Assembly (NCBI GenBank): GCA_964529195.1
Contig: CAZGWM010000002.1
Coordinates: 1-41,791, forward strand
DNA: 41,791 nucleotides
Source: an uncultured Muribaculaceae bacterium
Lineage (GTDB): Bacteria; Bacillota_I; Bacilli_A; RF39; UBA660
Direction of reading: 5' to 3'
Shown: positions 62 through 29,351 of the stretch, one piece after another
Layout: each line of letters begins with the position of its first letter
Position numbering within the stretch: position 1 is the stretch's first letter
Translations under genes and position numbers: made by a program
The notes under the pieces: model-generated
Told to the model about the DNA's origin: nothing
The model's input: the letters and a program-made list of their open reading frames with translations, nothing else
Databases searched by the model: none

Positions 62-137
62 TGGCTGCCTTGGGAGGATTCGAACCGCCGAAATGTCAGA
101 GTCAAAGTCTGATGCCTTACCGCTTGGCTACAAGGCA
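62..137 (-). tRNA. tRNA-Gln (anticodon UUG)
   Basis: Reverse complement TGCCTTG-TA-GCC-AAGCGGTAA-GGC-A-TCAGA-CTTTGAC-TCTGA...TTCGAAT...CAAGGCA-G-CCA; acceptor and anticodon stems pair. One C:U mismatch in the T stem. Confidence 0.8.
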
Positions 138-142
138 GTAAA

Positions 143-226
143 TGGTGGAAGGACATAGATTTGAACTATGGAACCCTAAGGAACAGATTTACAGTCTGCC
201 GCGTTTGACCACTTCGCTATCCTTCC
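143..226 (-). tRNA. tRNA-Tyr (anticodon GUA), long variable arm
   Basis: Reverse complement GGAAGGA-TA-GCGAAGTGGTCAAACGC-GGCAGA-CTGTAAA-TCTGT...CATAG-TTCAAAT-CTATG-TCCTTCC-A-CCA. Confidence 0.92.
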
Positions 227-233
227 AAAAAAA

Positions 234-309
234 TGGTGCCGACAGAGAGAATCGAACTCCCAACCTACTGATTACAAGTCAGTTGCGCTACCAATTACGC
301 TATGTCGGC
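234..309 (-). tRNA. tRNA-Thr (anticodon UGU)
   Basis: Reverse complement GCCGACA-TA-GCG...ACTGA-CTTGTAA-TCAGT...GGGAG-TTCGATT-CTCTC-TGTCGGC-A-CCA. Confidence 0.92.
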
Positions 310-316
310 AAATAAA

Positions 317-393
317 TGGTGGGCGATGTAGGACTTGAACCTACGACCCCCTGCTTGTAAGGCAGGTGCTCTAGCCAGCTGAGCTAATCGCCC
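317..393 (-). tRNA. tRNA-Val (anticodon UAC)
   Basis: Reverse complement GGGCGAT-TA-GCTC-AGCTGGCTA-GAGC-A-CCTGC-CTTACAA-GCAGG-GGGTC-GTAGG-TTCAAGT-CCTAC-ATCGCCC-A-CCA. Confidence 0.93.
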
Positions 394-400
394 ATTTAAA

Positions 401-489
401 TGGTGCCCGAGGCCAGACTTGAACTGGCACAAGGTTTAATCCTCGCAGGATTTTAAGTCCTGTGCGTCTACCGGTTCCGCCACTCGGGC
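401..489 (-). tRNA. tRNA-Leu (anticodon UAA), long variable arm
   Basis: Reverse complement GCCCGAG-T-GGCGGAACCGGTAGACGC-ACAGGA-CTTAAAA-TCCTG...GCCAG-TTCAAGT-CTGGC-CTCGGGC-A-CCA. Confidence 0.92.
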
Positions 490-5531: not shown

Positions 5532-6158
5532 GTGACTAAGAAGATTAAAATTATACTACTAATGCTTACACTTACTGTATGTATGGGTTTTATGAGTACT
5601 ACTTACTCAAGATATGTTGCTAGTGCGAAAAGTGATATTAATGCTCAATTTTCTAAATGGCAAATATTAGTTAACAATTTTGATATTACTAATCGAAAAG
5701 AATCATCAGTTGATATTACACCAGTGATTGAAGATAATACTCATGTTGCAAGTAATACATTTGCTCCTACTTCAAAAGGATACTTTGATATAGAAATTAA
5801 TCCAACTAATGTTGATGTATCATTTTTATATAATATTGATTTAAATATTGATAATGAGTCTATGCCTGATATATTAATAAATAAATATGCAATTTTACCA
5901 GATAATTATGTTGAAGGTGATAATTTAGATTTAACTATCATCGAAGATGGATCAATTACTAATACACTTCTTTATGATAATAATGCTGAGTCATTTACAT
6001 TTAATACTTTTACTATAAGAATATTCTTTGAATGGTATGAGGGTGAAGGTGAGTTTATGGATGATGAGGCAGATACTAATTTAGCTATGCTTGCTTTAAG
6101 TAATGAAACATCAGTTAAGATGAGCGCTAATATTAGATTTGAACAAGTTATTAATTAA
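5532..6158 (+). CDS. Secreted TasA/camelysin-like protein with SipW-class signal peptide (GTG start)
   Basis: MTKKIKIILLMLTLTVCMGFMSTTYSRYVAS signal. C-terminal FFEWYEGEGEFMDDEADTN...VKMSANIRFEQV resembles the terminal strands of the TasA/peptidase M73 family. Confidence 0.65.
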   Translation: MTKKIKIILLMLTLTVCMGFMSTTYSRYVASAKSDINAQFSKWQILVNNFDITNRKESSVDITPVIEDNTHVASNTFAPTSKGYFDIEINPTNVDVSFLYNIDLNIDNESMPDILINKYAILPDNYVEGDNLDLTIIEDGSITNTLLYDNNAESFTFNTFTIRIFFEWYEGEGEFMDDEADTNLAMLALSNETSVKMSANIRFEQVIN

Positions 6159-6199: not shown

Positions 6200-6225
6200 A
6201 AAAAAACAGCTTAGCTGTTTTTTTT
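6200..6225. terminator. Bidirectional terminator between convergent island genes
   Basis: AAAAAACAGC-TTA-GCTGTTTTTT hairpin with A-run and T-run flanks. Confidence 0.7.
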
Positions 6226-6226
6226 A

Positions 6227-7474
6227 TTATAAGTTTGTTTTATTCATTTCAATAACTGGTATTATATGACATAAGGCATTTTTATTTTCAGGATATATTT
6301 TAGTTCTTGTTTCGTTTTCTTTTATTACTGCAAATGCTTTTTCATTATTATATTCTTCATCTATCCAGTAACATTTACTACTTGTTAAGTATAAGTACTC
6401 TTGGTTATTAAATATGAATTTACCATTTTTAGACTCTACTTTATTAAGTATTGTATTTAATCTATTTTCATATGATAAGTTACCTATTATTCTATTTGAT
6501 ATACCAGGTATTGATATATATGAGTTTTTTATATCTTTAGATACTACCTTTAATAAATCTTCTATATTAAGAGCTCTAGTAGGCACGTTCCAAGCTGTTT
6601 GATATGAGTCTACTATATCTTTATAAGAATGGTATGTTTCTTCATTGTATGTTCTAAAAGGGTTTGGAAGAAGTGTTACTGTTTTATCTCCTAAAGTATT
6701 ATTTTCATCTATTATATAGCTTTTTATACATGTATCACTTATCGATGAGCATACATTATTATTTATTACATCAATTAGTATTTCATCTCCTAGGTTATAT
6801 CTAGGATCTGATGATGAATCATCATCTAAGTACTGGCCAGCTGTTAAGTTTATATCTACTTGAATAGATGCTTTTACTTCATATGACGGATCATTATTTT
6901 TCTTTAAAGCTTCATTTTCTTGAAATTCATGGGCTTTATTTCCCCAGTAACTATCAAGTTCATCATCTTCTGAATCAAGAGGCCACGAAACAGTTATTTC
7001 AAATGTTTCTTCTTCTCCTTTTGAGAGCATGTATTTTTTACTTAGTTTTACATTTATATTAAATGGATAATCCTGTGATATCACATCCATTATTTTTTCT
7101 GATGTTATTTCTTCTTCATCCAATATATAGTGATCTTTTTTATCTCCAAGTATTCTTGCTGATAATATATCATATGATATTTCAGCATCTGAATCTCCAA
7201 GGTTTCTTAAGGTTACATATTCTGTTTGAGGTTCCATTCCAGGATATAAATCAGATAACGACATAACTAGGTTATGAGTTACTGGTTTTCCATCTTTACT
7301 TATTTCAATATTCCAGGCTTTTACATTTACTTCAGTTCTTACTCTTAATACTCCACTATAAGCAAACCATGCAAGGGTCACTGATACAAATGATAGTGCC
7401 ATAAAAAATAGCGATGTTAAGTTCAATTTAAAATATGCTTTATAGCGTGATTTCATAAGGCACATCCCTTTCAT
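6227..7474 (-). CDS. Secreted two-domain protein: TasA-like N-terminal domain plus a C-terminal YW...PVI module, SipW-class signal
   Basis: Signal ...FFMALSFVSVTLAWFAYS. LYPGMEPQTEYVTLRNLGDSDAEISYDI and FEITVSWPLDSEDDELDSYWGN resemble TasA-type strands. The start may be the Met at 7456 (MKSRYK). Confidence 0.65.
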   Translation of the reverse strand: MKGMCLMKSRYKAYFKLNLTSLFFMALSFVSVTLAWFAYSGVLRVRTEVNVKAWNIEISKDGKPVTHNLVMSLSDLYPGMEPQTEYVTLRNLGDSDAEISYDILSARILGDKKDHYILDEEEITSEKIMDVISQDYPFNINVKLSKKYMLSKGEEETFEITVSWPLDSEDDELDSYWGNKAHEFQENEALKKNNDPSYEVKASIQVDINLTAGQYLDDDSSSDPRYNLGDEILIDVINNNVCSSISDTCIKSYIIDENNTLGDKTVTLLPNPFRTYNEETYHSYKDIVDSYQTAWNVPTRALNIEDLLKVVSKDIKNSYISIPGISNRIIGNLSYENRLNTILNKVESKNGKFIFNNQEYLYLTSSKCYWIDEEYNNEKAFAVIKENETRTKIYPENKNALCHIIPVIEMNKTNL

Positions 7475-7477: not shown

Positions 7478-8053
7478 TTAGTTATTTTCTTTGTTTAGTC
7501 TCTTTTCTGCACTGTTTGATAATGTTATTGCTATTTCGTATCCAATTATTCCAACTAAAGGGACTATAATGCATAAATAAAATCCTATTTGGGTTGATAT
7601 TATTTTATATACAAATGATAGTGTTTTTACTTTATATACAATAACTCCAAGTAGCTGATCTTCATATACAGTTGGATCTTCTATTATGTTATTTAATCCT
7701 TTAGCTCTAAATTTATACTGACCCTTTGTATCTTGATCTACGCTTCTTACTTCGTGAGTTACTATTTTATCTTTTACATCTCCAACGCGACCTACATAAC
7801 TTATATCATCACCAGCTTTTACTTCTGATGCCGGTATTTCTTTTGATAATAAGACATCTCCTACGTTATATCTAGGCTCCATACTTGGTGTTACGACTGT
7901 AAACATCCTGAAATTAAAAAAGGATATTTTGTTATCACTAAATCTTTGTAAGTATACGGCTAAAACAAAGGCTATTATGAAGATTGTAAATATTGTTCCT
8001 ATTATTTTTCTTACTATTTTGCAAATTTTATTTTCTCTTAATTGTTTTAACAT
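7478..8053 (-). CDS. sipW: SipW-type (S26B, archaeal/ER-type) signal peptidase I
   Basis: N-terminal TM, catalytic TPSMEP and VTHEV boxes, AKGLNNIIEDP (GDNN-box variant) and a second C-terminal TM, as in B. subtilis SipW. Confidence 0.8.
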   Translation of the reverse strand: MLKQLRENKICKIVRKIIGTIFTIFIIAFVLAVYLQRFSDNKISFFNFRMFTVVTPSMEPRYNVGDVLLSKEIPASEVKAGDDISYVGRVGDVKDKIVTHEVRSVDQDTKGQYKFRAKGLNNIIEDPTVYEDQLLGVIVYKVKTLSFVYKIISTQIGFYLCIIVPLVGIIGYEIAITLSNSAEKRLNKENN

Positions 8054-8065: not shown

Positions 8066-9202
8066 TTAAAAATAATTTTGGGCTTTATCTAAGTATTCAT
8101 CTATTGCCGTTCTAAATTTATCTTTGATTAGTGCCTCATTTATTTCTGTTTGATCTTTTTCTTTTTTTAACTCTTCAGCTATAATACTTAATATTTCTTC
8201 TTCTGTTATCGTTATTCCATTACTTAAAAGAGTTGCAATTACTCTTTTTATTTGTTGATGCATCATTATGATAGCATACTCAGTTATTCTTTTTTTCTGA
8301 TCTCTTTTAAATGGTGTTATCGAGTCCATTACATAGTAGTTCATTAAAAAGGCATCATCTAATATTGATTTTAATATAGCATTTCCGGTTGAGTCAAGTG
8401 ATTCTTCTTTTTTCTCATCATCAATATCTTGATATGATTGAAGAAAGTCCCATACTTTCATCGCCATTTGGAAGTTTGGATTTTTTAAAATTAAGTTTGT
8501 TCTTCTAAGTGGCGGGAATACTAAAGATACGTTTGCATCTCTAAGTGATGTGTATAGCGCGCTTCTTTGCCATACCATTATAAATCTATTTATTAGTTCT
8601 ATTTTTTCATATACTTCTTTTAATTTTTCTTCTAGTGACTGAGCATTAGATCCTTCAAAATCAATATTTGGAAGCTGGTTTGCAGTTACTTTTAATTCAA
8701 TGTTTAATCTTTCAACTCCATTGTTAGTAGTTCCAGCATATTCAAGAGTTTTTTCATCTCTTACTTCCATGTCTTCCATTTCTTTTTCTTTTTGCATTAC
8801 GAATCTTGATAAGTTATATATAAGTGTATATAGTACTCTGTTTTCATATGTATTATATGTTTCTTCAGTTCTTTCAATTAGAAGTTTAGATGGCTGAACT
8901 TCACTTGTTATAGCATCTATTTTTTCTATATAGTGGGTATTTTTAGATAAGTCTTTTACACTTGCAACGCTTATTTTTTTAGCTTTTTCTACTTTCACTA
9001 CATCTTCTTCTTTAATTAAAGATACTTTTGGATTAGTTACTATATTATCGATATAAGGACATGCTTTTTCAATTAATTCAACCCAACTAAAATCTAAAGA
9101 TGTTGATGAGAATTCTGATTGGTATACCATCTTTGAGTTAATATTTTTAGTAAACAGTTCACTTTTATTATTTAGTTTTTCATTTAGTTTTAAGTTACTC
9201 AT
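8066..9202 (-). CDS. McrC-like / DUF2357-like protein without recognisable nuclease motif
   Basis: TYENRVLYTLIYNLSRFV (ENR helix) and RRTNLILKNPNFQMAMKVWDFL resemble the McrC N-terminal/DUF2357 region. No PD-(D/E)xK pattern visible in the C-terminal third. Lies immediately downstream of a McrB-like gene. Confidence 0.5.
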   Translation of the reverse strand: MSNLKLNEKLNNKSELFTKNINSKMVYQSEFSSTSLDFSWVELIEKACPYIDNIVTNPKVSLIKEEDVVKVEKAKKISVASVKDLSKNTHYIEKIDAITSEVQPSKLLIERTEETYNTYENRVLYTLIYNLSRFVMQKEKEMEDMEVRDEKTLEYAGTTNNGVERLNIELKVTANQLPNIDFEGSNAQSLEEKLKEVYEKIELINRFIMVWQRSALYTSLRDANVSLVFPPLRRTNLILKNPNFQMAMKVWDFLQSYQDIDDEKKEESLDSTGNAILKSILDDAFLMNYYVMDSITPFKRDQKKRITEYAIIMMHQQIKRVIATLLSNGITITEEEILSIIAEELKKEKDQTEINEALIKDKFRTAIDEYLDKAQNYF

Positions 9203-9220
9203 GTCCTTTTATCCTTTCAA

Positions 9221-10753
9221 TTATGCTTGTTTTTTCAGTCTTTCTAAGAATTCAATACATTCAACCATTTTACCATTTCCAAACGCTTTATTTAGATATT
9301 GAATAAATGGATCAATTTCATCTCTTATAAATAGTATATTTAATTGCTCAAATTTACGTAATACTTTTTTAGCCATGAAGTAATCTATTGCCTCTACTTC
9401 AGTTCCACCACAAGCTACGTATACTGGAACGAATGTATTTAATTGTTTTAATATTCTGTTTCCGAATGCTATTCTAAAGTGTTTAATTACATACTGATCC
9501 ATTTCTTTTATCATTTTATCACTTGAATTTGATAATGGGAAATTTTCAACTGCTTCTTCAAATAGTTGTTCTAGGTAGCTAGCATTCATGCTCATTGCTT
9601 CTGTTTCAGGTGCTTTAAATGGTTCTACTTTTGTATTAATATCAATTGGCATAGCACGGTCATAAACTTTATCGGTAACCATGAATGTTGAGTCATCGTT
9701 ATTAATTGTTCCTATATACCAAAGGTTACCGGCTAGTTTTAATTTACCATTTTTTATGTATTTTGGATCGGTATCCCATCCACTTGTTACAAGTTCAATT
9801 ATCCATTCATCTCTTGATGGCATTTCTAGTATTGATAACATTTCAGCAAAGTAGTACTCTACTCTTGCTATATTCATCTCATCTAGTATGATTGTATGAA
9901 TATCATCTGTATAACCTGATGTGTATAATTCAGCTAGAACATCTGATTCGTTGAATTTTTTTGTAAATTCGTTGAAGTATCCTAGTAGTTCAGTTTTATC
10001 TCTCCATGATGGCTCTACTGATGCTATACATGAATCGTTATTTACATATTTACCCCAAGCATATGCTAAAGATGTTTTACCTGTTCCAGATATACCTTGA
10101 AGGATTATTAATTTACCACAAGATAACCCAGCTATAAAGCTTCTTAGAAGTGGAAGGTCATAGTATAGTTTAAGCTGAGATGCGTTGTAGTTTCTAAAGT
10201 TATTAACTACTTCTTTTAATGTATAGTTATTAGCATGTCTTTTAACTTTATATCCGGCATATTCTTTATCTATTGCAGTTAGTTTTGGGAATCTTGAATC
10301 TGATACATCTATATCAGTTTCCTCACCATCTTCATCTAATAAAGATGGATCATCTGGTGTATCTCCAGGTTTTAAGCCAAGCTGAGATACTTTCATTGCC
10401 ATTAAGTCTTCTCTTTCTTTCATTAATTTATTTACCTGGCTATGAAGATTATCTATTTCATTTAATAAATCATCTTGATTTACTTTTGTTCTTCCAATTC
10501 TTATTAGTTTTCTTACACCAAGTAGTGCTAAAACTACGATTGATACAATTATTATTACAACTAGTGCTATTACTAGTCCTACTAATAACCACTCAGCTCC
10601 ACTAAAACTATCTTGGTAACTTTCAAGAACTGATTTATAGTTATTGTAGTTAAACATCTTATAAAAGCCTTTTCCAAAACCTGAGAATATATCTATAAAT
10701 CCATCAAAGAATGCGGCTAAAAATTCGTATAAAAATCTAAAAAATATATTCAT
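9221..10753 (-). CDS. Membrane-anchored McrB-like AAA+ (AAA_5) GTPase
   Basis: TM helix EWLLVGLVIALVVIIIVSIVVLALLGV followed by RKLIRIGRTK, then a coiled coil. Walker A LQGISGTGKTSLA, Walker B plus McrB signature IILDEMNIARVEYYFAEMLSILE, and NLWYIGTINNDDSTFMVTDKVYDRAMPIDI (compare McrB IGTMNTADRS...RRRF). The start ATG overlaps the upstream stop (TAATG). Confidence 0.8.
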   Translation of the reverse strand: MNIFFRFLYEFLAAFFDGFIDIFSGFGKGFYKMFNYNNYKSVLESYQDSFSGAEWLLVGLVIALVVIIIVSIVVLALLGVRKLIRIGRTKVNQDDLLNEIDNLHSQVNKLMKEREDLMAMKVSQLGLKPGDTPDDPSLLDEDGEETDIDVSDSRFPKLTAIDKEYAGYKVKRHANNYTLKEVVNNFRNYNASQLKLYYDLPLLRSFIAGLSCGKLIILQGISGTGKTSLAYAWGKYVNNDSCIASVEPSWRDKTELLGYFNEFTKKFNESDVLAELYTSGYTDDIHTIILDEMNIARVEYYFAEMLSILEMPSRDEWIIELVTSGWDTDPKYIKNGKLKLAGNLWYIGTINNDDSTFMVTDKVYDRAMPIDINTKVEPFKAPETEAMSMNASYLEQLFEEAVENFPLSNSSDKMIKEMDQYVIKHFRIAFGNRILKQLNTFVPVYVACGGTEVEAIDYFMAKKVLRKFEQLNILFIRDEIDPFIQYLNKAFGNGKMVECIEFLERLKKQA

Positions 10754-12984
10754 TAATCTTCACCCTCTAAGCTTTCAAATTTTTCATATACATCATCATT
10801 TATAATATAACTTTTTAAATCATTTGGTATAAATTTATCTAGTTTATTATAGTTAGGGTCTTTTTTATTTACAAAGATTAAGTTTGCCATATATAGGCTA
10901 CTTTTTTCTTTTGCTGGTAAGTTTTTAGTATCAGGAAATCCTACTGCAAATTTATATCCTGCTTTTCTTAATTTTTTAACTATCTTTTTGTTTTTAACTA
11001 AGACATCAAAATCAATTAATATTATTATATGACTTTTTGCATATTCATCATCATATGTTTTTACTATTCTAAATATTTTCTTTTCTTTTGAATATAAGCT
11101 TTCAGGTAATGTAATATAATATTTGTTTTGGAAATTACAATTAATCATATCATCAAGTAATTTAGCAAGTAGAAGTGTTATTTTAACAGGCATTTTATCT
11201 TCTGCTATAATTCCTTCTTCATATGTTTGCTCGATTACATGCTCACTATATATTCTGTTAAAATCAACATTATGAATTAAGTTAACTGCATATGAATCTT
11301 TGACTATTTCAGCCATATTAATTCTAAATGTATTTGACTCAAGTTTCTTTAAAAAGAATCTTGATATTTCTTCATAAGTTTTTTGAAGTGAGATTACTTC
11401 ATTTGCAATTACCATTAAATTATTAGTATCTAGCTTAGTTTGATATTTAGCTAGTTCACTTTTAAAGAATTCTCTTTTTGTCTTTAAATCTTCAATAGAA
11501 CTTGCTCCTTGATCAAGTGCTGCTATGATGTTAAATATCTTAACGAATTTATCTACTTTTTCGTTATATTTATTATCGGTTCCTTTGTATGTATCTTTTA
11601 GTTCTTTACCAACTATTTCAAATAGTTTAGATACTTTTACAAGAAAGTTTTTACCCTTATAATTTATTTCTTTTTCACTAAAGTAATTATAATATTTAGC
11701 ATGGATATAAACTGTGTTAAATGAATTTCTTATTGTTGGTTCATTTGTGTCTAGTTTCTCATCATCTTGAACTAGTGAAACAAGTTCATTTAATTCATCT
11801 GTTTTTATATTCATAAGTGCATCAATAGTGTTTTTATTTCTTCTTACTGATTTTTTTAAAATATCTAAATTTATATCAGTTAAATCATCACTATCATTTA
11901 CAACTTCTTTTTCAACTTCTATTTTAGAGATTTCTTTTTTCTTTTCTTTTTCTGTATCAGCCATTTCATATTTAGCTATTTCTAGCATTGTTTCATCTAT
12001 TTGACTTGTATCAACAGGTATTATTCTAAAGAACTGAGTTTTATCTAAATCACTATCATAATACTCATCATCATCTAAAATTTCTTCATCTTCTAACTCT
12101 TCATCTAAATGTTTTTGATCTTCTAGTTTCACTTCTGTTATTTCATTTTCTTCTTTAGTATTACCAGTTGATATTATAAATGACTCATCGTTTATTTCTT
12201 CAACTACTAATGGTTCTTCTTCTGTTTCATTTTCTACAACTATTAAAGGCTCTTCTTCTGTTTCATCTTCGACTACTATTAAAGGTTCTTCTTCGGTAAT
12301 AACTATTTTTTCTAATTCATCAGTTATTATTAATTTATCATTATCTTCTTTAATTATATTTTGTAGTATCATCTCTTTTTTTAGTGATGATATTTTTTTA
12401 TCACGGTTAATGTATTTAATTTTTTCTTTTATAAACTTAATTATTTTCTTTAAGACTATATTTGTTTTTGTTTCTTTATTGTTTTTATCTTTAATTATTG
12501 ATTCAAGTAAGAATAATGATATTATTAAAAATACTAATACAGCAGGATTTAAGATTGTTTTTCTTAATATTCCAAAACCTGCTAGTGTGTTTACTACTTT
12601 ACCTACTACTTGGTTTTCTTCAACTAATTTGGCATCTTTAGATACATTGTTATCGCCTTGAGTTGAGTATTTTTTATCATGAATTTCAACGACTCTATGG
12701 GTTATGAAATTTTTTCCTTGTTTATATGTTATGATATCATCTAAATTTATTTTTGAATCTAGTTTTACTATTATCCAGTCTCCCGCTTTAATAGTATCTT
12801 TCATACTATTAGTTTGAACTTCAAACATTGTATATCCAAAAAAGTTAGAGTGATCTTGTTTTAAAAGTTTTATTTGCACTCCAGTATATGTTGTTACTAG
12901 TAATATCACACTTAATATAGCGATGAAAAAGTTTAATAAAATATTGATTATTTTTTCAGTAATTTGATTTTTTGCTATATTCAT
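10753..12984 (-). CDS. SipW-type signal peptidase fused to a ~570-aa acidic cytoplasmic extension
   Basis: Residues 1-175 form a complete S26B unit: TM, TNSMKDT, ITHRV, TQGDNNVSKD, second TM. This is followed by acidic repeats (EEEPLIVVEDET x3) and a C-terminal globular region with no assignable family. Confidence 0.75.
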   Translation of the reverse strand: MNIAKNQITEKIINILLNFFIAILSVILLVTTYTGVQIKLLKQDHSNFFGYTMFEVQTNSMKDTIKAGDWIIVKLDSKINLDDIITYKQGKNFITHRVVEIHDKKYSTQGDNNVSKDAKLVEENQVVGKVVNTLAGFGILRKTILNPAVLVFLIISLFLLESIIKDKNNKETKTNIVLKKIIKFIKEKIKYINRDKKISSLKKEMILQNIIKEDNDKLIITDELEKIVITEEEPLIVVEDETEEEPLIVVENETEEEPLVVEEINDESFIISTGNTKEENEITEVKLEDQKHLDEELEDEEILDDDEYYDSDLDKTQFFRIIPVDTSQIDETMLEIAKYEMADTEKEKKKEISKIEVEKEVVNDSDDLTDINLDILKKSVRRNKNTIDALMNIKTDELNELVSLVQDDEKLDTNEPTIRNSFNTVYIHAKYYNYFSEKEINYKGKNFLVKVSKLFEIVGKELKDTYKGTDNKYNEKVDKFVKIFNIIAALDQGASSIEDLKTKREFFKSELAKYQTKLDTNNLMVIANEVISLQKTYEEISRFFLKKLESNTFRINMAEIVKDSYAVNLIHNVDFNRIYSEHVIEQTYEEGIIAEDKMPVKITLLLAKLLDDMINCNFQNKYYITLPESLYSKEKKIFRIVKTYDDEYAKSHIIILIDFDVLVKNKKIVKKLRKAGYKFAVGFPDTKNLPAKEKSSLYMANLIFVNKKDPNYNKLDKFIPNDLKSYIINDDVYEKFESLEGED
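12196..12294 (-). repeat. In-frame 36-nt tandem repeat (2 full copies plus 1 partial) encoding EEEPLIVVE(D/N)ET
   Basis: Minus strand gaagaagaacctttaatagtagtcgaagatgaaaca, then gaagaagagcctttaatagttgtagaaaatgaaaca, then gaagaagaaccattagtagttgaagaa. Confidence 0.85.
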
Positions 12985-13018: not shown

Positions 13019-13047
13019 ATTTTATCAAAATTATAATGGTTTGTAAA
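13019..13047 (-). promoter_or_regulatory. Sigma-A-type promoter for the SipW-fusion/McrB-like operon
   Basis: Minus strand TTTACA (13047..13042), 17 nt, TAAAAT (13024..13019), located just after a terminator. Confidence 0.5.
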
Positions 13048-13104: not shown

Positions 13105-13629
13105 TTAGTTAAGTGCATTTTTTTTATTTAATTTTACTTCAATTATAATTGCATATAATTCATATATAAATATTAAGAAGCTTGGTATTAATACGATAAA
13201 GAAAAATCCCCAAGTAGATTGAATCATTCCCAGTACTGTTCCTACTTTTTCAATTACTCTTTCAGCAGATCCAATAAGTAAACTTTCTGAATATGTTGCA
13301 CCATTTTCAAATGATATGGCTTCTTCAGTAAGATGAACTTCTCCAACTACTCCTAAATCTATTTGTGGTGCTCCTGTTTTTTGAGTTTTGTAAACAAATA
13401 TTTCATCACCCAGTTTTATATCTGCTAGGTTTTTATTTCTTACAAGCACTACATCACCTTTTTTATAGTTTTCTGATGTTAAGTTATTTTTTATTATAAT
13501 AACTGATAGATCATCAAACTGAGTTACTTTATATTTGTTTATATTTAGTAATAGTATTGTATTAAATATAACAAATGTAAAATATATTACCGCTAGTATT
13601 CCTAAGAATATATTTTTTATTATTTTCAT
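13105..13629 (-). CDS. SipW-like pseudo-peptidase (catalytic Ser box lost)
   Basis: Same architecture and length as SipW: N-terminal TM, KGDVVLV...LGDEIFVY beta core, C-terminal TM. NNLTSEN replaces S-M-x-P and the GDNN box is absent. ATG 13629 with GGAGAA RBS preferred over the TTG at 13677. Confidence 0.6.
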   Translation of the reverse strand: MKIIKNIFLGILAVIYFTFVIFNTILLLNINKYKVTQFDDLSVIIIKNNLTSENYKKGDVVLVRNKNLADIKLGDEIFVYKTQKTGAPQIDLGVVGEVHLTEEAISFENGATYSESLLIGSAERVIEKVGTVLGMIQSTWGFFFIVLIPSFLIFIYELYAIIIEVKLNKKNALN

Positions 13630-13678
13630 TTTATTTTCTCCTATTTTTATCTTATCATAAATGCTTTTGTGTTTCAAT

Positions 13679-15298
13679 TTATTTCTTTATTGTATACGGA
13701 TTATTTAAACTACCATCTCCATTTATTCTTATATTTCCATCAATATTTATTACTGGTCTTAATCCATGAGTATTTGATATGTTTGATGATTCTATTACTC
13801 CTAGGTAGTTATATATGTATTTAGAGTTTTCATCACTCGGGCTTATTAGCCAGTATGTTTCTCCTTTATTTAAATAAGCGCCACCTTCAAGTGCTTCATC
13901 TAACGTTAAAAGACCAACCGGATATGATAAGTGACCATCTCCTTTTTTAACATCACTTTTTGTATGTGAGTAATTTTTATTACATTTTACATTTGGAGTA
14001 TTTAAGTTAAATCTTATATTTGTTTTATAAGTTTCTTCTTCTTTACTTAAATCTTCACAAAATAGTGTGTCTTTTATATATTCATTTAATTCTTTGTTTT
14101 CAATGTTTTGTTTATACCAGTTATCTAGCTGAAGTTTTATGTTACTATTTAAATAAAGTTCATCTCCCCAATTTTGAAGCTGAAGTGTTTCATTGATGCA
14201 TACATTTTCTTCACAGGCACCATTTAATATTAATTTTACTGAGTTATTTCCGTTTATTCGGGCTATTTTCCATAGTTTATTTCCGAAAATTATATTATTA
14301 TTTATTTCCTGTCCTTTAAAGAAAAATGAATTTCCATATGAGTCTTCACTATGGTATAGTCCATCATTATTTGATAGTTCTTTTATTAAAAGATCATCTA
14401 TTCCACCATTTTGATTTAATATATCATTTATTAGTAGTTCTTCTTTTTTATAATCTTTTTCATTTATTAAGTTTAATGTGAAGTCTTCTTTTGTTATATT
14501 TATTTCATTATCTGGTTTATATATTTTTAAGTTAATACTTTCTTTTTTATTTAATTTTATATATATACTCTCTTCATCATATGAATCTATTTTTTTATCT
14601 TCTTTATCTATTAATATTTTATCTTCATCATAAGATATATTTATTATTTTGCTTTTTAATGAAGGATTAGTTAGTATTAGATCACCAGTGTTTATGTTAT
14701 CTATATAATCTAATATTATATTTTCATTATCTTTTATTGTATTTTTTAATGTAAGGGTTGTTTGCATTTCTTTTTTATAAGGACTTGTTGATTTAAATGT
14801 TAGTTTTACATTTAAAGTTTCAAGTTCTTCATTATTAAATATTATGTCTAAGTATATGTTTTTTATTGTTTTTTCAGCTTTCCAGTTATAGCCATTTAAA
14901 AGGCAGTCTTTTTTATTTAAACTTTGGATATTTTCTTCATTATCTATACATATTAATGATGATGATAATATTCCTTCAAGACTATCTTCTCCATTTAATA
15001 GGCACTTTATATCTTCACTTGATTCACATGTTAATTCATAGTCTATATCATACTCAGTTATTTTTAAGTTGTTTTCTGAGTTTGTTATTTCAAAGTATAT
15101 TCTTTCTTTATCCCAGGCTTTAATTTCTTTATTTTTACCATCTATTAAATCACTTGATATATAAAAGTTTTTAGTAGATAAGTAATATTCCCATACGTTA
15201 TTTCCGACATATTTAGCAAATGTATAACTTAAACTCAAAAAGATTCCGGCAGCGACTATGATTAGAAATAAGATTGTGTATTGTTTTATTTTTTTCAT
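13679..15298 (-). CDS. Secreted protein with SipW-class signal and a C-terminal YWL...GLRPVI module
   Basis: GGGGGAGG RBS. Signal ...AAGIFLSLSYTFAKYVGN. The C-terminal ETYWLISPSD...GVIESSNISNTHGLRPVINI resembles a YWLRS...GVRP motif domain common in Firmicutes surface proteins; I cannot name the family confidently. Confidence 0.65.
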   Translation of the reverse strand: MKKIKQYTILFLIIVAAGIFLSLSYTFAKYVGNNVWEYYLSTKNFYISSDLIDGKNKEIKAWDKERIYFEITNSENNLKITEYDIDYELTCESSEDIKCLLNGEDSLEGILSSSLICIDNEENIQSLNKKDCLLNGYNWKAEKTIKNIYLDIIFNNEELETLNVKLTFKSTSPYKKEMQTTLTLKNTIKDNENIILDYIDNINTGDLILTNPSLKSKIINISYDEDKILIDKEDKKIDSYDEESIYIKLNKKESINLKIYKPDNEINITKEDFTLNLINEKDYKKEELLINDILNQNGGIDDLLIKELSNNDGLYHSEDSYGNSFFFKGQEINNNIIFGNKLWKIARINGNNSVKLILNGACEENVCINETLQLQNWGDELYLNSNIKLQLDNWYKQNIENKELNEYIKDTLFCEDLSKEEETYKTNIRFNLNTPNVKCNKNYSHTKSDVKKGDGHLSYPVGLLTLDEALEGGAYLNKGETYWLISPSDENSKYIYNYLGVIESSNISNTHGLRPVINIDGNIRINGDGSLNNPYTIKK

Positions 15299-15310: not shown

Positions 15311-15832
15311 CTAAGTTATTTGCCATGATGCTATTTCAAGTTTTAGAAAATCAACTAATCCTGAGTATGATGCATCGTTATGTTCTTCACTGAATTTAAC
15401 TACTAGTTTATAGTCATCTTTTTCTTTTTGTTTATGATTTAAAGTTAGTGGAGGTGCGTTACATATTAACTCGTTTTGATTATTTCTAGAATATGTTTCA
15501 TCACAAGTAATTACTAATACATCTCCTCTATATAATTTTATTTCAAGTGGCATAAAGTGATATGTTTTTATTTTTATTTGATATTCAAAAGATACATCAC
15601 TTATTTTTTCATCTGCATTATTTGCTACTGAGAAGTTATATTCTTTTTCATCTCCTGGTAGCATATTTGTTAGCGGTATTTCTAGTTCATTTTCCATTTT
15701 AGCATCAAATATAAATGTAGCAATATTTTGATCATCTATTTTTAATTCAGCACTTGATGTGAAAACTGAGTATGTTAAAGCAAGGGAAAATATAAGTAAA
15801 GTTATAAGTATTACTTTGATTCTTTTTTTCAT
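15311..15832 (-). CDS. Small TasA/camelysin-like secreted protein (minimal single domain)
   Basis: Signal ...IFSLALTYSVFTSSAELKI. LPGDEKEYNFSVANNADE and the C-terminal FSEEHNDASYSGLVDFLKLEIASWQ follow the TasA/peptidase M73 strand pattern. Confidence 0.7.
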   Translation of the reverse strand: MKKRIKVILITLLIFSLALTYSVFTSSAELKIDDQNIATFIFDAKMENELEIPLTNMLPGDEKEYNFSVANNADEKISDVSFEYQIKIKTYHFMPLEIKLYRGDVLVITCDETYSRNNQNELICNAPPLTLNHKQKEKDDYKLVVKFSEEHNDASYSGLVDFLKLEIASWQIT

Positions 15833-15849: not shown

Positions 15850-18800
15850 TTATCTTACAATAAAGTGTTTTTTTACTGTATCTATTTTTGTATTTCCATC
15901 ATATAGCTCAAATACTAATTTATAACCTCTATAATTTAATTTATTATTAAAGTTTAAGGTTATTTCTTTAGCACTATCATTTGATTCATCTAAAGAATAT
16001 ACATAGTTATGAATGTTTGTTAATTCTTCTTTTAAAAATGTATTTATATCTACTTCAGTATATGTTTGATCATAAGCAGTTAGGTTTGTTTTTTCATATA
16101 AAGATATTCTTACACTTGGGTTTATAAATGTTCCTAGTTTACCAATTGATAGTGTTATTTTATCTTCATTTTTATCTATTATATTAGTATTTAAATTTAC
16201 ATTAAAGCCATGAGTTACTTCATATGCATCTTCCATGACTATAACAGGTATATTAATCTCTTTACTTGATGCTGGTGAGTTTTTACCATCTGGTGATATA
16301 ATTGATGTTATTTTTAAATAGTAAGTTCCTTTTGTTAGTTCTAGTTTTTCTTCATTTGTAGTTATTTTTATTTCATTTTCATTATTAGGTGTTATATATT
16401 TTATAATATCATCATTATCAGAAAGTATTTTTTCATTATTTATTTCAATATTTAGATAATCTAAATATTTTTTATTTAATTTATTTCCATTTGAATCAAC
16501 AAGCATTATATTAAGGCCAGTTTTATATGTTTCATATCTTGCATCTATTACATTATCTTTAAATAAGTAGTTTGATGTTATATTTATATTTGTTATTGAT
16601 TCTGTATTTAATATAATATTCTCAGCACTTGATGTGTGAGTTAACATCATACTTCCATTTTTATCATGATATATATTAAATGTTTTTATATCAGTATCTG
16701 GTGTTGATATTTTATGATCTTTATTTTTAGTTCTTTCTATATATAGTTTTATATTTTCATAATCTTTTTCTATATTAGAGTTTTTAAAATCTACTATTAT
16801 TTTAAAGTTATCATTTAATTCTGAATCTTCATTTATATAATTCTCGTTATCTTTCATGTTTTTAAAGTCTTCAAATTTATATGTTGCTTTTTTTACGCAA
16901 GATTCATCTAGTGGAGTGCAGCTTTCTTCAAAAGTAGTATTTTCATTTACTGTGTATTTATATATTTCTTTATTATTTAAATCAATTAGTTTTATTTCAG
17001 TTCCATTTGGTAGATTTATGCTTGATATTAAATTATGTTTATAATTTATTAGATCTTCAAAGTAAACTCCAGTTAAAGTGGTATTTAACGTTACTGATGA
17101 AGATGAGTTTATGTTATTATTATCATAGTTTTTATAATTATCATATCCTGGTGTTAGTGATGTTACATCATATCCCCCATAAACAATATGATCTGTATTT
17201 ATATATTTAATGTTATTTGATAGATCTGTTACTTTAGCATATATTACATATGTTCCTTTTTGGTTAATTGTTATTCCACTTGTATACTCGATCCACTCTT
17301 CTATTTGATGTGGGTCTACTATAGTGTTACTTACGTAGTAATATGACTTATCTAGCCCAGATAAACTATCTTCTGTATGAACAGTAAATGTTTCTTCTTT
17401 TGATATATAAAAGTATGATGCTTCATCGTTTAATTCATCCCATAAAACATCTTTTAGTGTAATTGATATTTCTGAGTCTGTTTTATCTAGCACAAATATA
17501 TCTGTATTTATATATGATACTCTATCTTTATAATCAGTTATTTTAAAGTATATTTCATATGTTCCTTCTTCTGATATTTTAGTTACATCTTCATATAAAG
17601 TCCATGTTATTTCATTTAAATCAGGTGTTAAGCTAGTATCATCATTTATAAAGTATTCAACTTTATTTATTGGAGTGAAGTTATTTACTCCATCTATAGC
17701 GAAGTTTATATTTGTATTTGAGTATACTGTTTCTTTTTCAATAACTGAAGATGCATACACTTTATCTTTTACATATATAGTTACATTTTCGCTTGATTTA
17801 TTATCATATTTTGTCTCTGGATAATTATTTATTATCCAATTTTCTTCATTAAAGTTTAAATCTTCATATAAAATATTATCTATTACTTGATATGTATTTA
17901 TACTTCCGGTATATGTTCCTTCACTTGTTATTTTATCACCTTCGATAAAGGTGTTTTGAAATGATAATGTATTATTATTTATATTTATTAATGGTATGTC
18001 TAGTGTATTAAATGTATCTTTTATTAAAACAGATCCACTATTTATATTTATAAATGCACTTTTATAAGGTGATATTATTTCACTTAGTGAGTATGTATTA
18101 TTTATGTTTAATATTCCATCATTTATTCCAGTTATTCCAGATGCGTATATTTTTGAGTTTATTTTTCCGGTTGAGTATGAATTTGATAATGTAGTTTCGC
18201 CTTCTGCTTTATATATAATTCCGGCCCCCATTTCATGAGCGTATACATCTGTTTTATTTACAATATTATTAAGATTTGAATCAGCAACAACGCCAGCTAC
18301 TCCTGATGCGTGTGATGAGTTATATTTTATAATGTATTTAACATCACTAAAAGTTATTAAATCACTTACATCAGTTATTGTTTCAATTTTTAAATTATTT
18401 ATATCACTTAACTCTATATTAAACATTCCACCAGTTATTATTTTATCATCTAGTTTAACAACTGTTTCACTTGGGTTATTTAATGTGTAATTACCAGTTA
18501 AATTTACTGATACAATATTATTTATTAGTAGTGATGGTAAGTTACTTAAATCTATATTAGTTTCAAGTAAGGTAGCTCCTATATATATGTTATTTATATT
18601 TATATCTTTTATTTCTTCTTTTTCTTCTGCCTTAGAAATAACATATCCATCTGTTATTATATTTTCGATATTAGAATTAACCGCGCTAGATGCTAAAGTA
18701 CTTGATATATTTCCTCCATATATTAATGAGTTTTTTATTGATAAGTTTTTTACTTCTCCATTTAAATCATTAAATAAAGCTAAATTTTCTTTATCATTAT

Positions 18801-19323
18801 CAGTCATATAAAGTCCATAGATTGTGTTTTCTTTAGCATCTATAAATCCTTTAAATGAATCTAAAGAAGGAAATATATTTATACTTCCTGATCTTACTCC
18901 ATTAAATTCTTCATTTTCATAGTACTGATTAGTATATGGATTAACAAAGTATACATCTTCATTTAAAATATATTTTATATGACCATCTTCGTATTTAAAT
19001 ATTCCACTATTTAAAACAATATTATTATTTATTTCAAAGTATGTATCTTCGTAGTTAGTATCTTTTAATTTTAAGCTTAAGTAAGCGAGCTCTCCTCCAT
19101 TTGAGATAATATAAGGATCTTCCTTACTTCCATCACCTGATCTATAAGATGAGGCGGTTGTTCCATCCCAGGCTGATCCTGTTATCAAAGGATCTCCATA
19201 TATGAATTTAGCAAGCGTTGGAAGAAATACTGATATTACTAGTATTGTTAAAATGATTATAATTGATAGTTTTATTTTCTTATCTTTTGGTAAATTAAGA
19301 AAATAGTTTTTTAATTTTTCCAT
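15850..19323 (-). CDS. Giant secreted adhesin-like protein: SipW-class signal, GLUG/beta-helix-like repeats, Ig-like repeats
   Basis: Signal ...VISVFLPTLAKFIYGD. WDGTTASSYRSGDGSKEDPYIISNGGELAYLS entry motif, then G-rich turns (GGNISS, ASGVAGVV, GAGIIY, ASGITGI). Two repeats of the ...W..Y......EGTYxIYxKxTDxxxxxxYINTDxxV type. No LPXTG. Confidence 0.7.
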   Translation of the reverse strand: MEKLKNYFLNLPKDKKIKLSIIIILTILVISVFLPTLAKFIYGDPLITGSAWDGTTASSYRSGDGSKEDPYIISNGGELAYLSLKLKDTNYEDTYFEINNNIVLNSGIFKYEDGHIKYILNEDVYFVNPYTNQYYENEEFNGVRSGSINIFPSLDSFKGFIDAKENTIYGLYMTDNDKENLALFNDLNGEVKNLSIKNSLIYGGNISSTLASSAVNSNIENIITDGYVISKAEEKEEIKDININNIYIGATLLETNIDLSNLPSLLINNIVSVNLTGNYTLNNPSETVVKLDDKIITGGMFNIELSDINNLKIETITDVSDLITFSDVKYIIKYNSSHASGVAGVVADSNLNNIVNKTDVYAHEMGAGIIYKAEGETTLSNSYSTGKINSKIYASGITGINDGILNINNTYSLSEIISPYKSAFININSGSVLIKDTFNTLDIPLININNNTLSFQNTFIEGDKITSEGTYTGSINTYQVIDNILYEDLNFNEENWIINNYPETKYDNKSSENVTIYVKDKVYASSVIEKETVYSNTNINFAIDGVNNFTPINKVEYFINDDTSLTPDLNEITWTLYEDVTKISEEGTYEIYFKITDYKDRVSYINTDIFVLDKTDSEISITLKDVLWDELNDEASYFYISKEETFTVHTEDSLSGLDKSYYYVSNTIVDPHQIEEWIEYTSGITINQKGTYVIYAKVTDLSNNIKYINTDHIVYGGYDVTSLTPGYDNYKNYDNNNINSSSSVTLNTTLTGVYFEDLINYKHNLISSINLPNGTEIKLIDLNNKEIYKYTVNENTTFEESCTPLDESCVKKATYKFEDFKNMKDNENYINEDSELNDNFKIIVDFKNSNIEKDYENIKLYIERTKNKDHKISTPDTDIKTFNIYHDKNGSMMLTHTSSAENIILNTESITNINITSNYLFKDNVIDARYETYKTGLNIMLVDSNGNKLNKKYLDYLNIEINNEKILSDNDDIIKYITPNNENEIKITTNEEKLELTKGTYYLKITSIISPDGKNSPASSKEINIPVIVMEDAYEVTHGFNVNLNTNIIDKNEDKITLSIGKLGTFINPSVRISLYEKTNLTAYDQTYTEVDINTFLKEELTNIHNYVYSLDESNDSAKEITLNFNNKLNYRGYKLVFELYDGNTKIDTVKKHFIVR

Positions 19324-19388: not shown

Positions 19389-19415
19389 CTAAAAAAACTC
19401 CAAATTATGGAGTTT
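19389..19415 (-). terminator. Rho-independent terminator after the 535-aa gene
   Basis: Minus strand AAACTCC-ATAATTT-GGAGTTT hairpin overlapping the stop, followed by TTTTTT. Confidence 0.65.
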
Positions 19416-25980: not shown

Positions 25981-26074
25981 TTTTTCCTCTTTCCTTCTAT
26001 ATATTTTTTGTATATTATGCTTCCTACAAGTGATAATATACATATAATCGATATCTACTATCGTATATAGTATA

Positions 26075-26102
26075 ATCTTATCACATAGAATTTCTTTGTC
26101 AA
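26075..26102 (-). promoter_or_regulatory. Sigma-A-type promoter for paralogue B
   Basis: Minus strand TTGACA (26102..26097), 16 nt, TAAGAT (26080..26075). Same hexamers as the promoter at 24410..24438. Confidence 0.55.
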
Positions 26103-26110
26103 TATTATTA

Positions 26111-26152
26111 TAAGATTTTTTTAAAAAAAGACTTCCTTTTTTAGAAAATCTT
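26111..26152 (-). terminator. Weak AT-rich hairpin after paralogue A
   Basis: Minus strand AAGATTTTCT-AAAAAAG-gaagt-CTTTTTT-TAAAAAAATCTT nested stem, almost all A:T. Confidence 0.3.
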
Positions 26153-26153
26153 T

Positions 26154-27584: not shown

Positions 27585-27645
27585 GTTTTTACCTCTTTTT
27601 ATTTTATATCAATACTTTATCATAAGTGATTAAGGCAGGCAAGTT

Positions 27646-29298: not shown

Positions 29299-29351
29299 AT
29301 TTTACCTCTTATATATATATTAACATAATCGTAAAAAAAAAGAATTAAATT

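What the first reader, a model, noticed from the sequence alone, without database searches (positions are those of the whole stretch)
8066..10753. Membrane-tethered McrB-like GTPase with a nuclease-less McrC/DUF2357-like partner, embedded between two SipW genes
Seen directly in 9221-10753:
- the McrB-type AAA+ signatures GISGTGKT, IILDEMNIARVEYYFAEMLSILE and IGTINNDDSTFMVTDKVYDRAM;
- instead of a DNA-binding N-terminal domain, a hydrophobic N-terminus, one clear TM helix followed by a positive patch, and a coiled coil.

Its downstream neighbour 8066-9202 has the ENR helix (TYENRVLYTLIYNL) and a later N-x-x-F/Y helix typical of McrC/DUF2357. It ends without any PD-(D/E)xK-like pattern that I can find.

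The ATPase ATG overlaps the stop of the SipW-fusion gene (TAATG at 10753). The pair is followed directly by a canonical sipW and a TasA-like cargo gene, all between one promoter (about 13019-13047) and one terminator (6200-6225).

Established knowledge: McrB/McrC form a GTP-driven hexamer-plus-activator motor in type IV restriction.

Inference: here the motor has lost both DNA reader and nuclease, and is coupled at the membrane to signal-peptidase and fibre genes. It may act as an assembly, extraction or quality-control motor for the fibre. Alternatively it is a membrane-acting defence module that has landed inside the island. Either would be undescribed to my knowledge.
Basis: partly seen in the sequence, partly recalled or inferred. 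Interest (0 to 1): 0.9.

Follow-up and report, generated by a model that had tools for sequence, protein, structure and literature searches.

The report
Membrane McrBC-like motor in pilus operon
The two genes are real: a restriction-enzyme-type GTPase that has swapped its DNA reader for a membrane anchor, plus a nuclease-less partner, built into a signal-peptidase and surface-fibre operon in many gut bacteria, a class named "CoCoPALM" in 2024 but never studied experimentally.

Summary
9221-10753 (-) encodes a 510-aa McrB-type GTPase of the NxD branch. It has one strong N-terminal TM helix, a positive patch and a helical linker instead of a DNA-binding domain. 8066-9202 (-) encodes a DUF2357 (McrC N-domain) protein whose C-terminal half is all-helical, with no nuclease fold. 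The pair lies between SipW-type signal peptidase genes.

The claim "undescribed" is wrong. Bell et al. [quoted passage not shown] I found no later study.

The "landed defence module" alternative is disfavoured:
- Relatives were confirmed in 594 stretches of species-representative genomes (more exist).
- In 84 loci the partner follows the GTPase in 82, and a SipW homologue is present in 80, while the outer flanks differ.

New here:
- A third conserved component sits directly upstream of the GTPase in 66/84 loci. It is either fused to SipW, as in this window, or free-standing.
- Its AF2 model (pLDDT 83) resembles degenerate EAL domains (best hit FimX). Sequence support is not significant.
- One Ruminococcus locus fuses the McrC-like partner to SipW.

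Function is inferred: a GTP-driven, possibly nucleotide-gated motor or switch coupled to SipW-dependent fibre processing and assembly.

The parts
9221..10753 (-). McrB-like GTPase of the NxD branch, 510 aa. Residues 1-54: aromatic amphipathic N-terminus. About 55-80: TM helix. About 85-125: helical, coiled-coil-like linker. About 125-150: acidic linker. About 150-510: AAA+ GTPase.
10514..10591 (-). TM helix of the GTPase (residues 55-80), followed by the positive patch RKLIRIGRTK. This places the GTPase in the cytoplasm.
   Evidence: conserved in 84/84 homologues in loci
10073..10096 (-). Walker A GISGTGKT (residues 220-227).
   Evidence: invariant columns
9695..9703 (-). McrB signature motif in its shortened NxD form (N351-N-D353, followed by D354).
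   Evidence: motif definition in PMC11090510
8066..9202 (-). McrC-like partner, 378 aa. DUF2357 helical bundle with a highly conserved but poorly modelled segment (residues 58-117, presumed stalk). A beta-hairpin insert lies at 151-173. The C-terminal domain is all-helical; there is no nuclease.
10753..12984 (-). Three-part fusion, 743 aa. SipW-type signal peptidase (TM1 12-30, catalytic domain with Ser/His/Asp motifs, TM2 146-164). Acidic repeat linker (about 170-385). Cytoplasmic conserved module (385-743). Its stop overlaps the GTPase start (TAATG).
10756..11832 (-). Third conserved component (fusion residues 385-743): helical bundle plus an alpha/beta domain with a predicted degenerate EAL-like fold. 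It is free-standing in 42 of 84 loci and fused to SipW in 20.
   Evidence: sequence-level EAL similarity not significant
7478..8053 (-). Canonical two-TM SipW-type signal peptidase, 191 aa.
   Evidence: TIGR02228 7e-20, above cutoff; Ser and His motifs present
6227..7474 (-). Secreted 415-aa protein with a SipW-cognate-like N-terminus (TLAWFAY). Its N-terminal domain is a paralogue of the 173-aa protein.
   Evidence: no TasA or Pfam hit
13105..13677 (-). SipW-like pseudo-peptidase, 190 aa, two TM helices, catalytic Ser and His missing.
   Evidence: present in 50/84 loci
13679..15298 (-). Secreted 539-aa protein with an N-terminal signal anchor. Its family is conserved in 48/84 loci.
15311..15832 (-). 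Small secreted beta-rich protein, 173 aa, candidate fibre subunit. Similarity to camelysin/TasA (Peptidase_M73) is weak.
15850..19323 (-). Giant secreted protein, 1157 aa. It is the first gene of the conserved cluster, after a terminator-like hairpin at 19395-19415.
5532..6158 (+). Convergent 208-aa secreted paralogue of the 173-aa protein. Its family is found in 55/84 loci.
6200..6225 (.). A-run / CAGC-TAA-GCTG / T-run hairpin between the convergent genes; likely a bidirectional terminator.

Best explanation
This is a CoCoPALM-type system. It is an McrBC-derived, NxD-branch GTPase with its DUF2357 (McrC-like) activator. It has been taken over from restriction and built into a conserved operon of about nine genes for SipW-dependent secreted and fibre proteins in gut Bacillota.

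Proposed working (inferred unless marked shown):
1. The GTPase forms a ring in the cytoplasm, hung from the membrane by its N-terminal TM helices and helical linkers. The TM helix and the positive-inside charge pattern are shown; the ring is inferred from McrB.
2. The partner inserts its very conserved residue 58-117 stalk into the ring and triggers GTP hydrolysis, as McrC does. Instead of a nuclease it carries a helical domain.
3. A third cytoplasmic component docks on this motor. It is tethered to the SipW peptidase in this window, free-standing in most relatives, and has a degenerate EAL-like fold.
4. GTP-driven conformational work, possibly gated by a nucleotide such as c-di-GMP, is thereby coupled to the signal peptidase. 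It would control the cleavage, release and assembly of the signal-anchored secreted subunits into a surface fibre.

My estimates: about 0.9 that it belongs to the CoCoPALM class; about 0.45 that it works as a motor for fibre processing or assembly.
For: McrB homology and the NxD motif:
-; motif definition.

DUF2357 partner:
- Above the Pfam threshold, and all 120 listed homologues carry PF09823.
- No nuclease.

TM anchor:
- Conserved in 84/84 homologues, with the positive-inside pattern.

Synteny:
- Partner immediately downstream in 82/84 loci; SipW in 80/84.
- The same nine-gene order in L001-L013 and others, with different outer flanks.

Coupling to SipW:
- TAATG overlap.
- SipW fused to the third component in 20 loci.
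- McrC-like partner fused to SipW in L083.

Third component:
- Directly upstream of the GTPase in 66/84 loci.
- AF2 pLDDT 82.6, pTM 0.78.
- 12 of the 13 best Foldseek PDB hits are EAL domains, led by the c-di-GMP-binding FimX EAL.

Conservation:
- The GTPase is 63-82% identical across more than 100 clusters, which is unusual for defence genes.

Published classification and the same inference: PMC11090510.
Against: - There is no experimental evidence for any member of the class.
- Known TasA-type fibres assemble outside the cell by donor-strand exchange without an NTPase, so the need for a motor is unexplained.
- The cargo proteins are not demonstrably TasA-like. Peptidase_M73 hits are sub-threshold (E 0.006-0.02 in 3/21 members), and profiles find no PDB match.
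- The EAL-like assignment rests on a Foldseek E of 2e-3 with TM 0.35-0.48.
- No Pfam EAL hit and hhalign E 0.15. The EAL catalytic motifs are absent.
- The partner shows no detectable similarity to E. coli McrC beyond the Pfam DUF2357 hit.
- The closest relatives of the GTPase outside this clade are coiled-coil CoCoNuT-like or PADLOC candidate defence proteins.
Confidence: 0.55

Rival explanations
1. Regulatory switch rather than motor. The GTPase, its partner and the EAL-like module act as a nucleotide-sensing checkpoint that turns SipW cleavage or operon output on and off. No mechanical work is done on the subunits.
For: - The third component has a degenerate EAL-like fold, like the c-di-GMP receptor FimX, and is tethered to the peptidase.
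- A pseudo-SipW is conserved in the operon, which suggests regulation by inactive paralogues.
- TasA-type assembly needs no energy (established knowledge).
Against: - McrB-family proteins are hydrolysis-driven rings, and the catalytic motifs here are invariant.
- The Clostridia-type loci lack the EAL-like part yet keep the GTPase, partner and SipW.
- The EAL assignment is weak at the sequence level.
Confidence: 0.2
2. Defence or conflict system. A CoCoNuT-like module retained for immunity, for example one that senses phage attack at the fibre or the membrane and triggers a membrane-level or abortive response.
For: - The GTPase core hits the PADLOC candidate PDC-M26A at 2.3e-37.
- It belongs to the NxD branch that contains the CoCoNuTs.
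- More distant relatives carry long coiled coils typical of those systems.
Against: - No nuclease or other effector was detected in the partner or in any neighbour.
- The PADLOC partner model is not hit.
- Sequence conservation is very high, and synteny with SipW and secreted proteins is fixed across many species.
- The flanks are core genes such as uvrB, cysS and a SpoU methylase, not a defence island.
Confidence: 0.15
3. Envelope or division role unrelated to the fibre. The FtsB/FtsL-like TM plus coiled coil would target the GTPase to the divisome or the wall-synthesis machinery. The SipW linkage would then reflect general secretion needs.
For: - Weak NCBIfam FtsL hit over residues 57-133 (E 0.034).
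- Bell et al. call the N-terminal domain FtsB-homologous.
Against: - The topology is opposite to FtsB. Here the coiled coil must be cytoplasmic.
- Linkage is specifically to SipW paralogues and their cognate secreted proteins, including gene fusions.
Confidence: 0.05

Closest known systems
[quoted passage not shown]
   Same: - NxD-branch McrB-like GTPase with an N-terminal TM plus coiled-coil segment.
- Adjacent McrC (DUF2357) homologue.
- Association with signal peptidase family genes.
- Inferred link to pilus assembly.
   Different: - The paper gives three sentences and no anatomy.
- The window's partner has only a short helical insert, not the long coiled coil seen in the Clostridia-type loci.
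- Three features found here are not mentioned in the main text searched or in the two supplementary files held as text: the conserved EAL-like third component, the pseudo-SipW, and the SipW fusions.
E. coli McrBC type IV restriction enzyme (PDB 6hz4, 6ut6, 7vsr)
   Same: - AAA+ GTPase core with Walker A, Walker B and the McrB signature region (hhalign Prob 96.7%).
- The DUF2357 partner gene lies immediately downstream.
   Different: - No DNA-binding N-domain; a TM anchor instead.
- NxD rather than NxxD.
- The partner lacks the PD-(D/E)xK nuclease.
- The context is a secretion and fibre operon, not restriction-modification.
CoCoNuT systems (CnuB/CnuC) and the PADLOC candidate PDC-M26
   Same: - Same NxD GTPase branch.
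- Coiled-coil additions.
- McrC homologues often lack an active nuclease.
   Different: - CoCoNuTs always have an associated HEPN or other nuclease and no TM anchor.
- No nuclease gene was found in this operon.
B. subtilis tapA-sipW-tasA and B. cereus sipW-calY fibre operons; archaeal bundling pili
   Same: - A dedicated archaeal/ER-type signal peptidase (SipW) is encoded next to its secreted substrates.
- The substrates have T-x-A/S-x-F/Y-like N-termini.
   Different: - Those systems have no NTPase.
- Here the cargo matches TasA/camelysin only weakly.
- The operon adds a GTPase, a partner, an EAL-like module, a pseudo-SipW and a giant surface protein.
FimX (degenerate EAL c-di-GMP receptor controlling type IV pilus assembly)
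   Same: - It is the best structural match of the third component (4ag0, prob 1.0).
- The logic is analogous: a catalytically dead EAL domain next to a pilus-associated NTPase.
   Different: - No significant sequence similarity.
- No GGDEF or REC domains.
- c-di-GMP binding is untested.
- The NTPase is McrB-type, not PilB-type.

Membership tests
CoCoPALM (Bell et al. 2024) | McrB-like GTPase with the shortened NxD signature motif, usually followed by D or E | tested here: met
   N351 and D353 are invariant in 26 family members and are followed by D354 in the window. The motif aligns to MNTAD of E. coli McrB. Definition.
CoCoPALM (Bell et al. 2024) | GTPase fused to an FtsB-like TM plus coiled-coil N-terminal domain | tested here: inconclusive
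   The TM helix and the following helical segment are clearly present and conserved. Homology to FtsB/FtsL is supported only by a weak NCBIfam FtsL hit (E 0.034).
CoCoPALM (Bell et al. 2024) | Adjacent McrC homologue (DUF2357) | tested here: met
   Pfam DUF2357 36.5 bits against a cutoff of 23.3. Immediately downstream in 82/84 loci.
CoCoPALM (Bell et al. 2024) | Association with signal peptidase family genes | tested here: met
   Two SipW genes are above the TIGR02228 cutoff, plus one degenerate copy in the window. A SipW homologue is present in 80/84 loci.
CoCoPALM (Bell et al. 2024) | Coiled coils on both the McrB and McrC homologues ('usually') | tested here: inconclusive
   Long K/E/R/A coiled coils occur in the 677-984-aa partners of the Clostridia-type loci. 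The window's 378-aa partner has only helices around a short insert. No coiled-coil predictor was available.
Canonical McrBC type IV restriction | N-terminal modified-DNA-binding domain on McrB | tested here: not met
   The N-terminus is an amphipathic segment, a TM helix and a linker. No DNA-binding family hit.
Canonical McrBC type IV restriction | PD-(D/E)xK nuclease at the C-terminus of McrC | tested here: not met
   No family hit. The model is all-helical after residue 190 at good confidence. No nuclease fold match. All homologues are about 377 aa.
Canonical McrBC type IV restriction | GTP-dependent hexamer activated by McrC | not testable with these tools
   Needs biochemistry or multimer modelling. 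Only the catalytic motifs could be checked.
CoCoNuT | Tightly linked HEPN or other nuclease when McrC lacks one | tested here: not met
   No nuclease family was found in any of the operon's proteins or neighbours.
SipW/TasA-type fibre operon | Archaeal/ER-type signal peptidase with catalytic Ser and His | tested here: met
   The fusion has NSM, THRV and GDNN. The 191-aa SipW has PSM and THEV. The 190-aa copy lacks both.
SipW/TasA-type fibre operon | Cargo of the TasA/camelysin (Peptidase_M73) family | tested here: inconclusive
   Only sub-threshold Peptidase_M73 hits (E 0.006-0.023, 3/21 members). Profiles find no PDB structure. The cargo families are paralogous to each other.
EAL domain (PF00563) | EAL-type (beta/alpha) barrel fold | tested here: inconclusive
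   AF2 pLDDT 82.6. 12 of the top 13 Foldseek PDB hits are EAL domains, but the best E is 2.2e-3 with TM 0.35-0.48.
EAL domain (PF00563) | Sequence-profile match and catalytic motifs (EAL, N, ExxE, DDFGTG, K, E, Q) | tested here: not met
   No Pfam EAL hit in 36 members. hhalign against five E. coli EAL domains gives E 0.15. The family consensus GYxFAxxLDxxF replaces G..alDDFGTG.

The most novel reading that the evidence does not exclude
CoCoPALM would be a three-part, second-messenger-gated membrane machine:
- A dead-EAL receptor is tethered to, or recruited by, the SipW peptidase.
- It docks on an McrB-type GTPase ring that is plugged by a nuclease-less McrC-like shaft.
- Cleavage, extraction and polymerisation of a new class of SipW-dependent surface fibre in uncultured gut Bacillota would then depend on GTP hydrolysis and on c-di-GMP or a related nucleotide.

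This would be the first case of a restriction-enzyme motor taken over for protein export or pilus biogenesis. It would also be a new route for energising fibre assembly in Gram-positive bacteria.
Probability: 0.2. Interest if true: 0.8.

Novelty: new member of a known kind. Interest (0 to 1): 0.55.

Why it matters
McrBC is the textbook GTP-driven restriction motor. Here the same engine has lost its DNA reader and its nuclease and is bolted to the membrane and to a signal peptidase. It is highly conserved across many species of uncultured gut and rumen Bacillota.

If it drives or gates the assembly of a surface fibre, two things follow:
- It would be a new way of energising or regulating fibre biogenesis in Gram-positive bacteria, where TasA-type and sortase pili need no cytoplasmic NTPase.
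- It would be a clear example of a defence motor taken over for cell-surface biology.

The class has a name but no data. The anatomy worked out here gives concrete experiments to run. That anatomy consists of the third EAL-like component, the SipW fusions, the pseudo-SipW and the nine-gene unit.

Tried and rejected
- Foldseek of the partner model against the PDB: nothing significant (best E 0.48). The model is only moderately confident (pLDDT 65).
- Profile of the partner against PDB sequences: no hit.
- hhalign of the partner family against E. coli McrC: nothing. McrC kinship therefore rests on the Pfam DUF2357 hit and on gene adjacency.
- Profiles of the three cargo families against the PDB: no TasA, CalY or archaeal pilin match. 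Pfam gives only sub-threshold Peptidase_M73 hits. 'TasA-like' is kept as a possibility, not a finding.
- EAL homology at the sequence level: Pfam none. hhalign against five E. coli EAL domains gives E 0.15. Only fold similarity is claimed.
The simple terminator scan missed the 6200-6225 hairpin, which folding supports.
The 7-sequence alignment A4 was used instead.
- The supplementary files of PMC11090510 held as text contain no CoCoPALM entries, so no direct accession-level comparison was possible.
- A literature search found no follow-up on CoCoPALM and no McrB/SipW study.
- The mobile-island idea was rejected. Composition is even and the neighbours are core genes.
Full report
**Observation**

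The window carries a run of same-strand (-) genes from about 19323 down to 6227. The two genes of the finding are present exactly as described.

The 510-aa product of 9221-10753 contains the quoted motifs. A single-sequence search of the PDB finds only E. coli McrB (E 0.008). A 26-member family profile raises this to 9.6e-6, again with McrB as the only hit. hhalign of that profile against E. coli K-12 McrB gives Prob 96.7%, E 4.7e-10 over 173 columns, from before Walker A to past the signature motif. Thirteen of the 26 members hit Pfam AAA_5. The window protein hits the PADLOC candidate-defence model PDC-M26A at 2.3e-37, over its AAA+ core only.

Invariant family columns include Walker A (G220, G223, G225, K226, T227), Walker B (D291) and N351-x-D353. 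The last aligns with MNTAD of McrB, so the signature is the shortened NxD form, followed by D.

The N-terminus has one very hydrophobic helix (residues about 55-80, Kyte-Doolittle 3.66) followed by RKLIRIGRTK. All 84 full-length homologues in fetched loci have such a helix, with more positive charge after it than before. The GTPase is therefore cytoplasmic and about 54 aromatic, amphipathic residues lie outside or in the outer leaflet.

The 378-aa product of 8066-9202 passes the Pfam DUF2357 threshold (36.5 against 23.3 bits, residues 51-152). All 120 listed homologues carry PF09823 and 113 of them are 365-381 aa long. AF2 (pLDDT 65) gives confident helices from residue 190 to the end and no beta-sheet there. 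No nuclease family, PDB sequence or PDB fold matches. The most conserved stretch, residues 58-117, is poorly modelled. That is what one would expect of the extended McrC stalk that only orders inside the GTPase ring; this reading is an inference.

**Surroundings**

The upstream gene (10753-12984) begins with a SipW-type peptidase. It scores 62.1 bits against TIGR02228 (cutoff 51.85), has the Ser/His/Asp motifs and has two TM helices. An acidic linker follows, with a 36-nt tandem repeat, and then a 360-aa C-terminal module. Its stop overlaps the GTPase start (TAATG).

Downstream lie a canonical SipW (7478-8053, 71.5 bits) and a 415-aa secreted protein. Further upstream are:
- a SipW-like protein lacking the catalytic Ser and His (13105-13677);
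- secreted proteins of 539 and 173 aa;
- a 1157-aa secreted protein.

A convergent 208-aa secreted paralogue ends at 6158. The 173-, 208- and 415-aa families are homologous in their N-terminal parts (hhalign E 8.6e-10 and 1.7e-7). They match camelysin/TasA only below threshold and match nothing in the PDB.

The hairpin at about 6200-6225 is real (z = -4.4). The proposed promoter cannot be told from chance. A terminator-like site at 19395-19415 suggests the unit starts with the 1157-aa gene.

The window's flanks are core genes: uvrB, cysS, a SpoU methylase, an LtaS-like sulfatase and tRNAs. Composition is even. Nothing indicates a mobile island.

**Relatives**

The GTPase has thousands of homologues. 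The 119 best clusters other than the window's own protein are 63-81% identical over nearly the full length and come from 'Bacilli', 'Mollicutes' and similar MAGs.

An exhaustive search gives 8022 representatives at E up to 0.001. These include forms with other N-termini: a signal peptide plus an ectodomain, multi-TM segments, and long coiled coils of the CoCoNuT/PDC-M26 kind.

The best 80 loci come from gut and rumen Bacilli- or Erysipelotrichaceae-like MAGs and from Clostridia such as Oscillospiraceae, Acutalibacteraceae and Ruminococcus.

In 84 loci:
- the DUF2357 gene follows the GTPase in 82; the other two are contig ends;
- a SipW homologue is present in 80.

Loci such as L001-L013 repeat the window's full gene order while the genes beyond it differ. 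This is what an integral operon component looks like, not an inserted defence module.

**A third component**

The C-terminal module of the window's fusion (residues about 385-743) recurs directly upstream of the GTPase, with gaps of -3 to +46 nt. Among the 84 loci:
- 20 have it fused to SipW, as in this window;
- 42 have it as a soluble protein of 314-368 aa;
- 4 have it cut by a contig end.

It has no Pfam family and no PDB sequence match.

Its AF2 model is good (pLDDT 82.6, pTM 0.78): a helical bundle followed by an alternating beta/alpha domain. In Foldseek against the PDB, 12 of the 13 best hits are EAL domains, led by the degenerate, c-di-GMP-binding EAL of FimX (E 2.2e-3, prob 1.0, TM 0.35-0.48).

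Sequence support is lacking. hhalign against five E. coli EAL domains gives E 0.15. Its only local alignment, however, falls in the expected register: GYkFA..D..F against G..alDDFGtG. The EAL catalytic motifs are not conserved. I therefore call it 'EAL-like, degenerate, moderate confidence'.

The Clostridia-type loci lack this component. Instead they have 677-984-aa partners with long K/E/R/A coiled coils. In L083 the partner ends in a TM-SipW-TM unit (Peptidase_S26, 4.3e-5). SipW is thus fused to two different cytoplasmic parts of the module in different lineages. This is the strongest evidence I found for physical coupling between the motor and the peptidase.

**What is known**

Bell, Makarova, Wolf and Koonin (eLife 2024, PMC11090510) surveyed McrBC systems. 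They describe a large clade in which the NxD GTPase is fused to an FtsB-like TM plus coiled-coil domain. [quoted passage not shown] It usually has coiled coils on both the McrB and McrC homologues. They name it CoCoPALM and defer its analysis to a later paper.

I found no later paper using the name and no study linking McrB and SipW. The window meets the testable defining features: the NxD GTPase, the TM anchor, the DUF2357 neighbour and the signal peptidase linkage. FtsB homology and a coiled coil on the partner remain inconclusive. It fails the defining features of canonical McrBC (DNA reader, NxxD, nuclease) and of CoCoNuTs (linked nuclease).

**Mechanism**

Shown:
- the homologies, the topology, the loss of reader and nuclease;
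- the synteny, the fusions and the translational overlap.

Inferred:
- A cytoplasmic McrB-type ring hangs from the membrane.
- It is activated by the partner's stalk.
- It is coupled, through the EAL-like module or directly through the partner, to SipW.
- This controls or powers the cleavage, release and assembly of signal-anchored subunits into a surface fibre.

Rivals:
- A pure regulatory switch, about 0.2.
- A defence role inherited from the CoCoNuT-like ancestry, about 0.15. This is weakened by the absence of any effector, the high conservation and the fixed non-defence context.
- A divisome-type role, about 0.05.

The main weakness of the motor idea is that known TasA-type fibres need no NTPase. 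In addition, the cargo here is not demonstrably TasA-like.

**Verdict**

This is a new member of a named but uncharacterised class. Three anatomical details appear to be new:
- the EAL-like third component;
- the SipW fusions;
- the pseudo-SipW.

Interest is moderate to high because the biology is unexplored and directly testable.

Noticed in passing
window 12195-12294: A 36-nt tandem repeat (2.8 copies, 87% matches) encodes the 12-aa acidic repeat ETEEEPLIVVE[DN] in the linker of the SipW fusion. The linker region is only partly alignable among fused homologues, whose total lengths range from 633 to 814 aa.
   Followed up: partly
window 13105-13677 (-): A SipW-like two-TM protein that lacks the catalytic Ser and His, so probably a pseudo-peptidase. 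Its family is present in 50 of 84 related loci.
   Followed up: partly
window 19414-21021 (-): A 535-aa cytoplasmic, mostly helical protein with no family hit. Homologues lie near the cluster in 25 of 84 loci, sometimes on the other side of it. It may be a further component.
   Followed up: no
L083:7353-10307 (+), Ruminococcus sp. MAG: The McrC-like partner is one 984-aa ORF: DUF2357, then a long charged coiled coil, then a C-terminal TM-SipW-TM unit.
   Followed up: partly
window 37454-38137 (-): A 227-aa protein with a strong Spo0A C-terminal domain hit (5.9e-31). No receiver domain was reported at E up to 1e-4. The TTG start may be miscalled.
   Followed up: no
window 24511-29903 (-): Two paralogous proteins with bacterial surface Ig-like domains (24511-26043, 26154-27584), followed by a DUF2207 membrane protein and a LemA gene. 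The neighbourhood is rich in surface proteins.
   Followed up: no
window 62-489 (-): A cluster of five tRNA genes (Gln, Tyr, Thr, Val, Leu) at the window edge.
   Followed up: no
L002:20879-21418 (-): A GGDEF-domain gene lies about 9 kb from the cluster in one related genome. Whether carriers of the EAL-like component generally make c-di-GMP was not examined.
   Followed up: no
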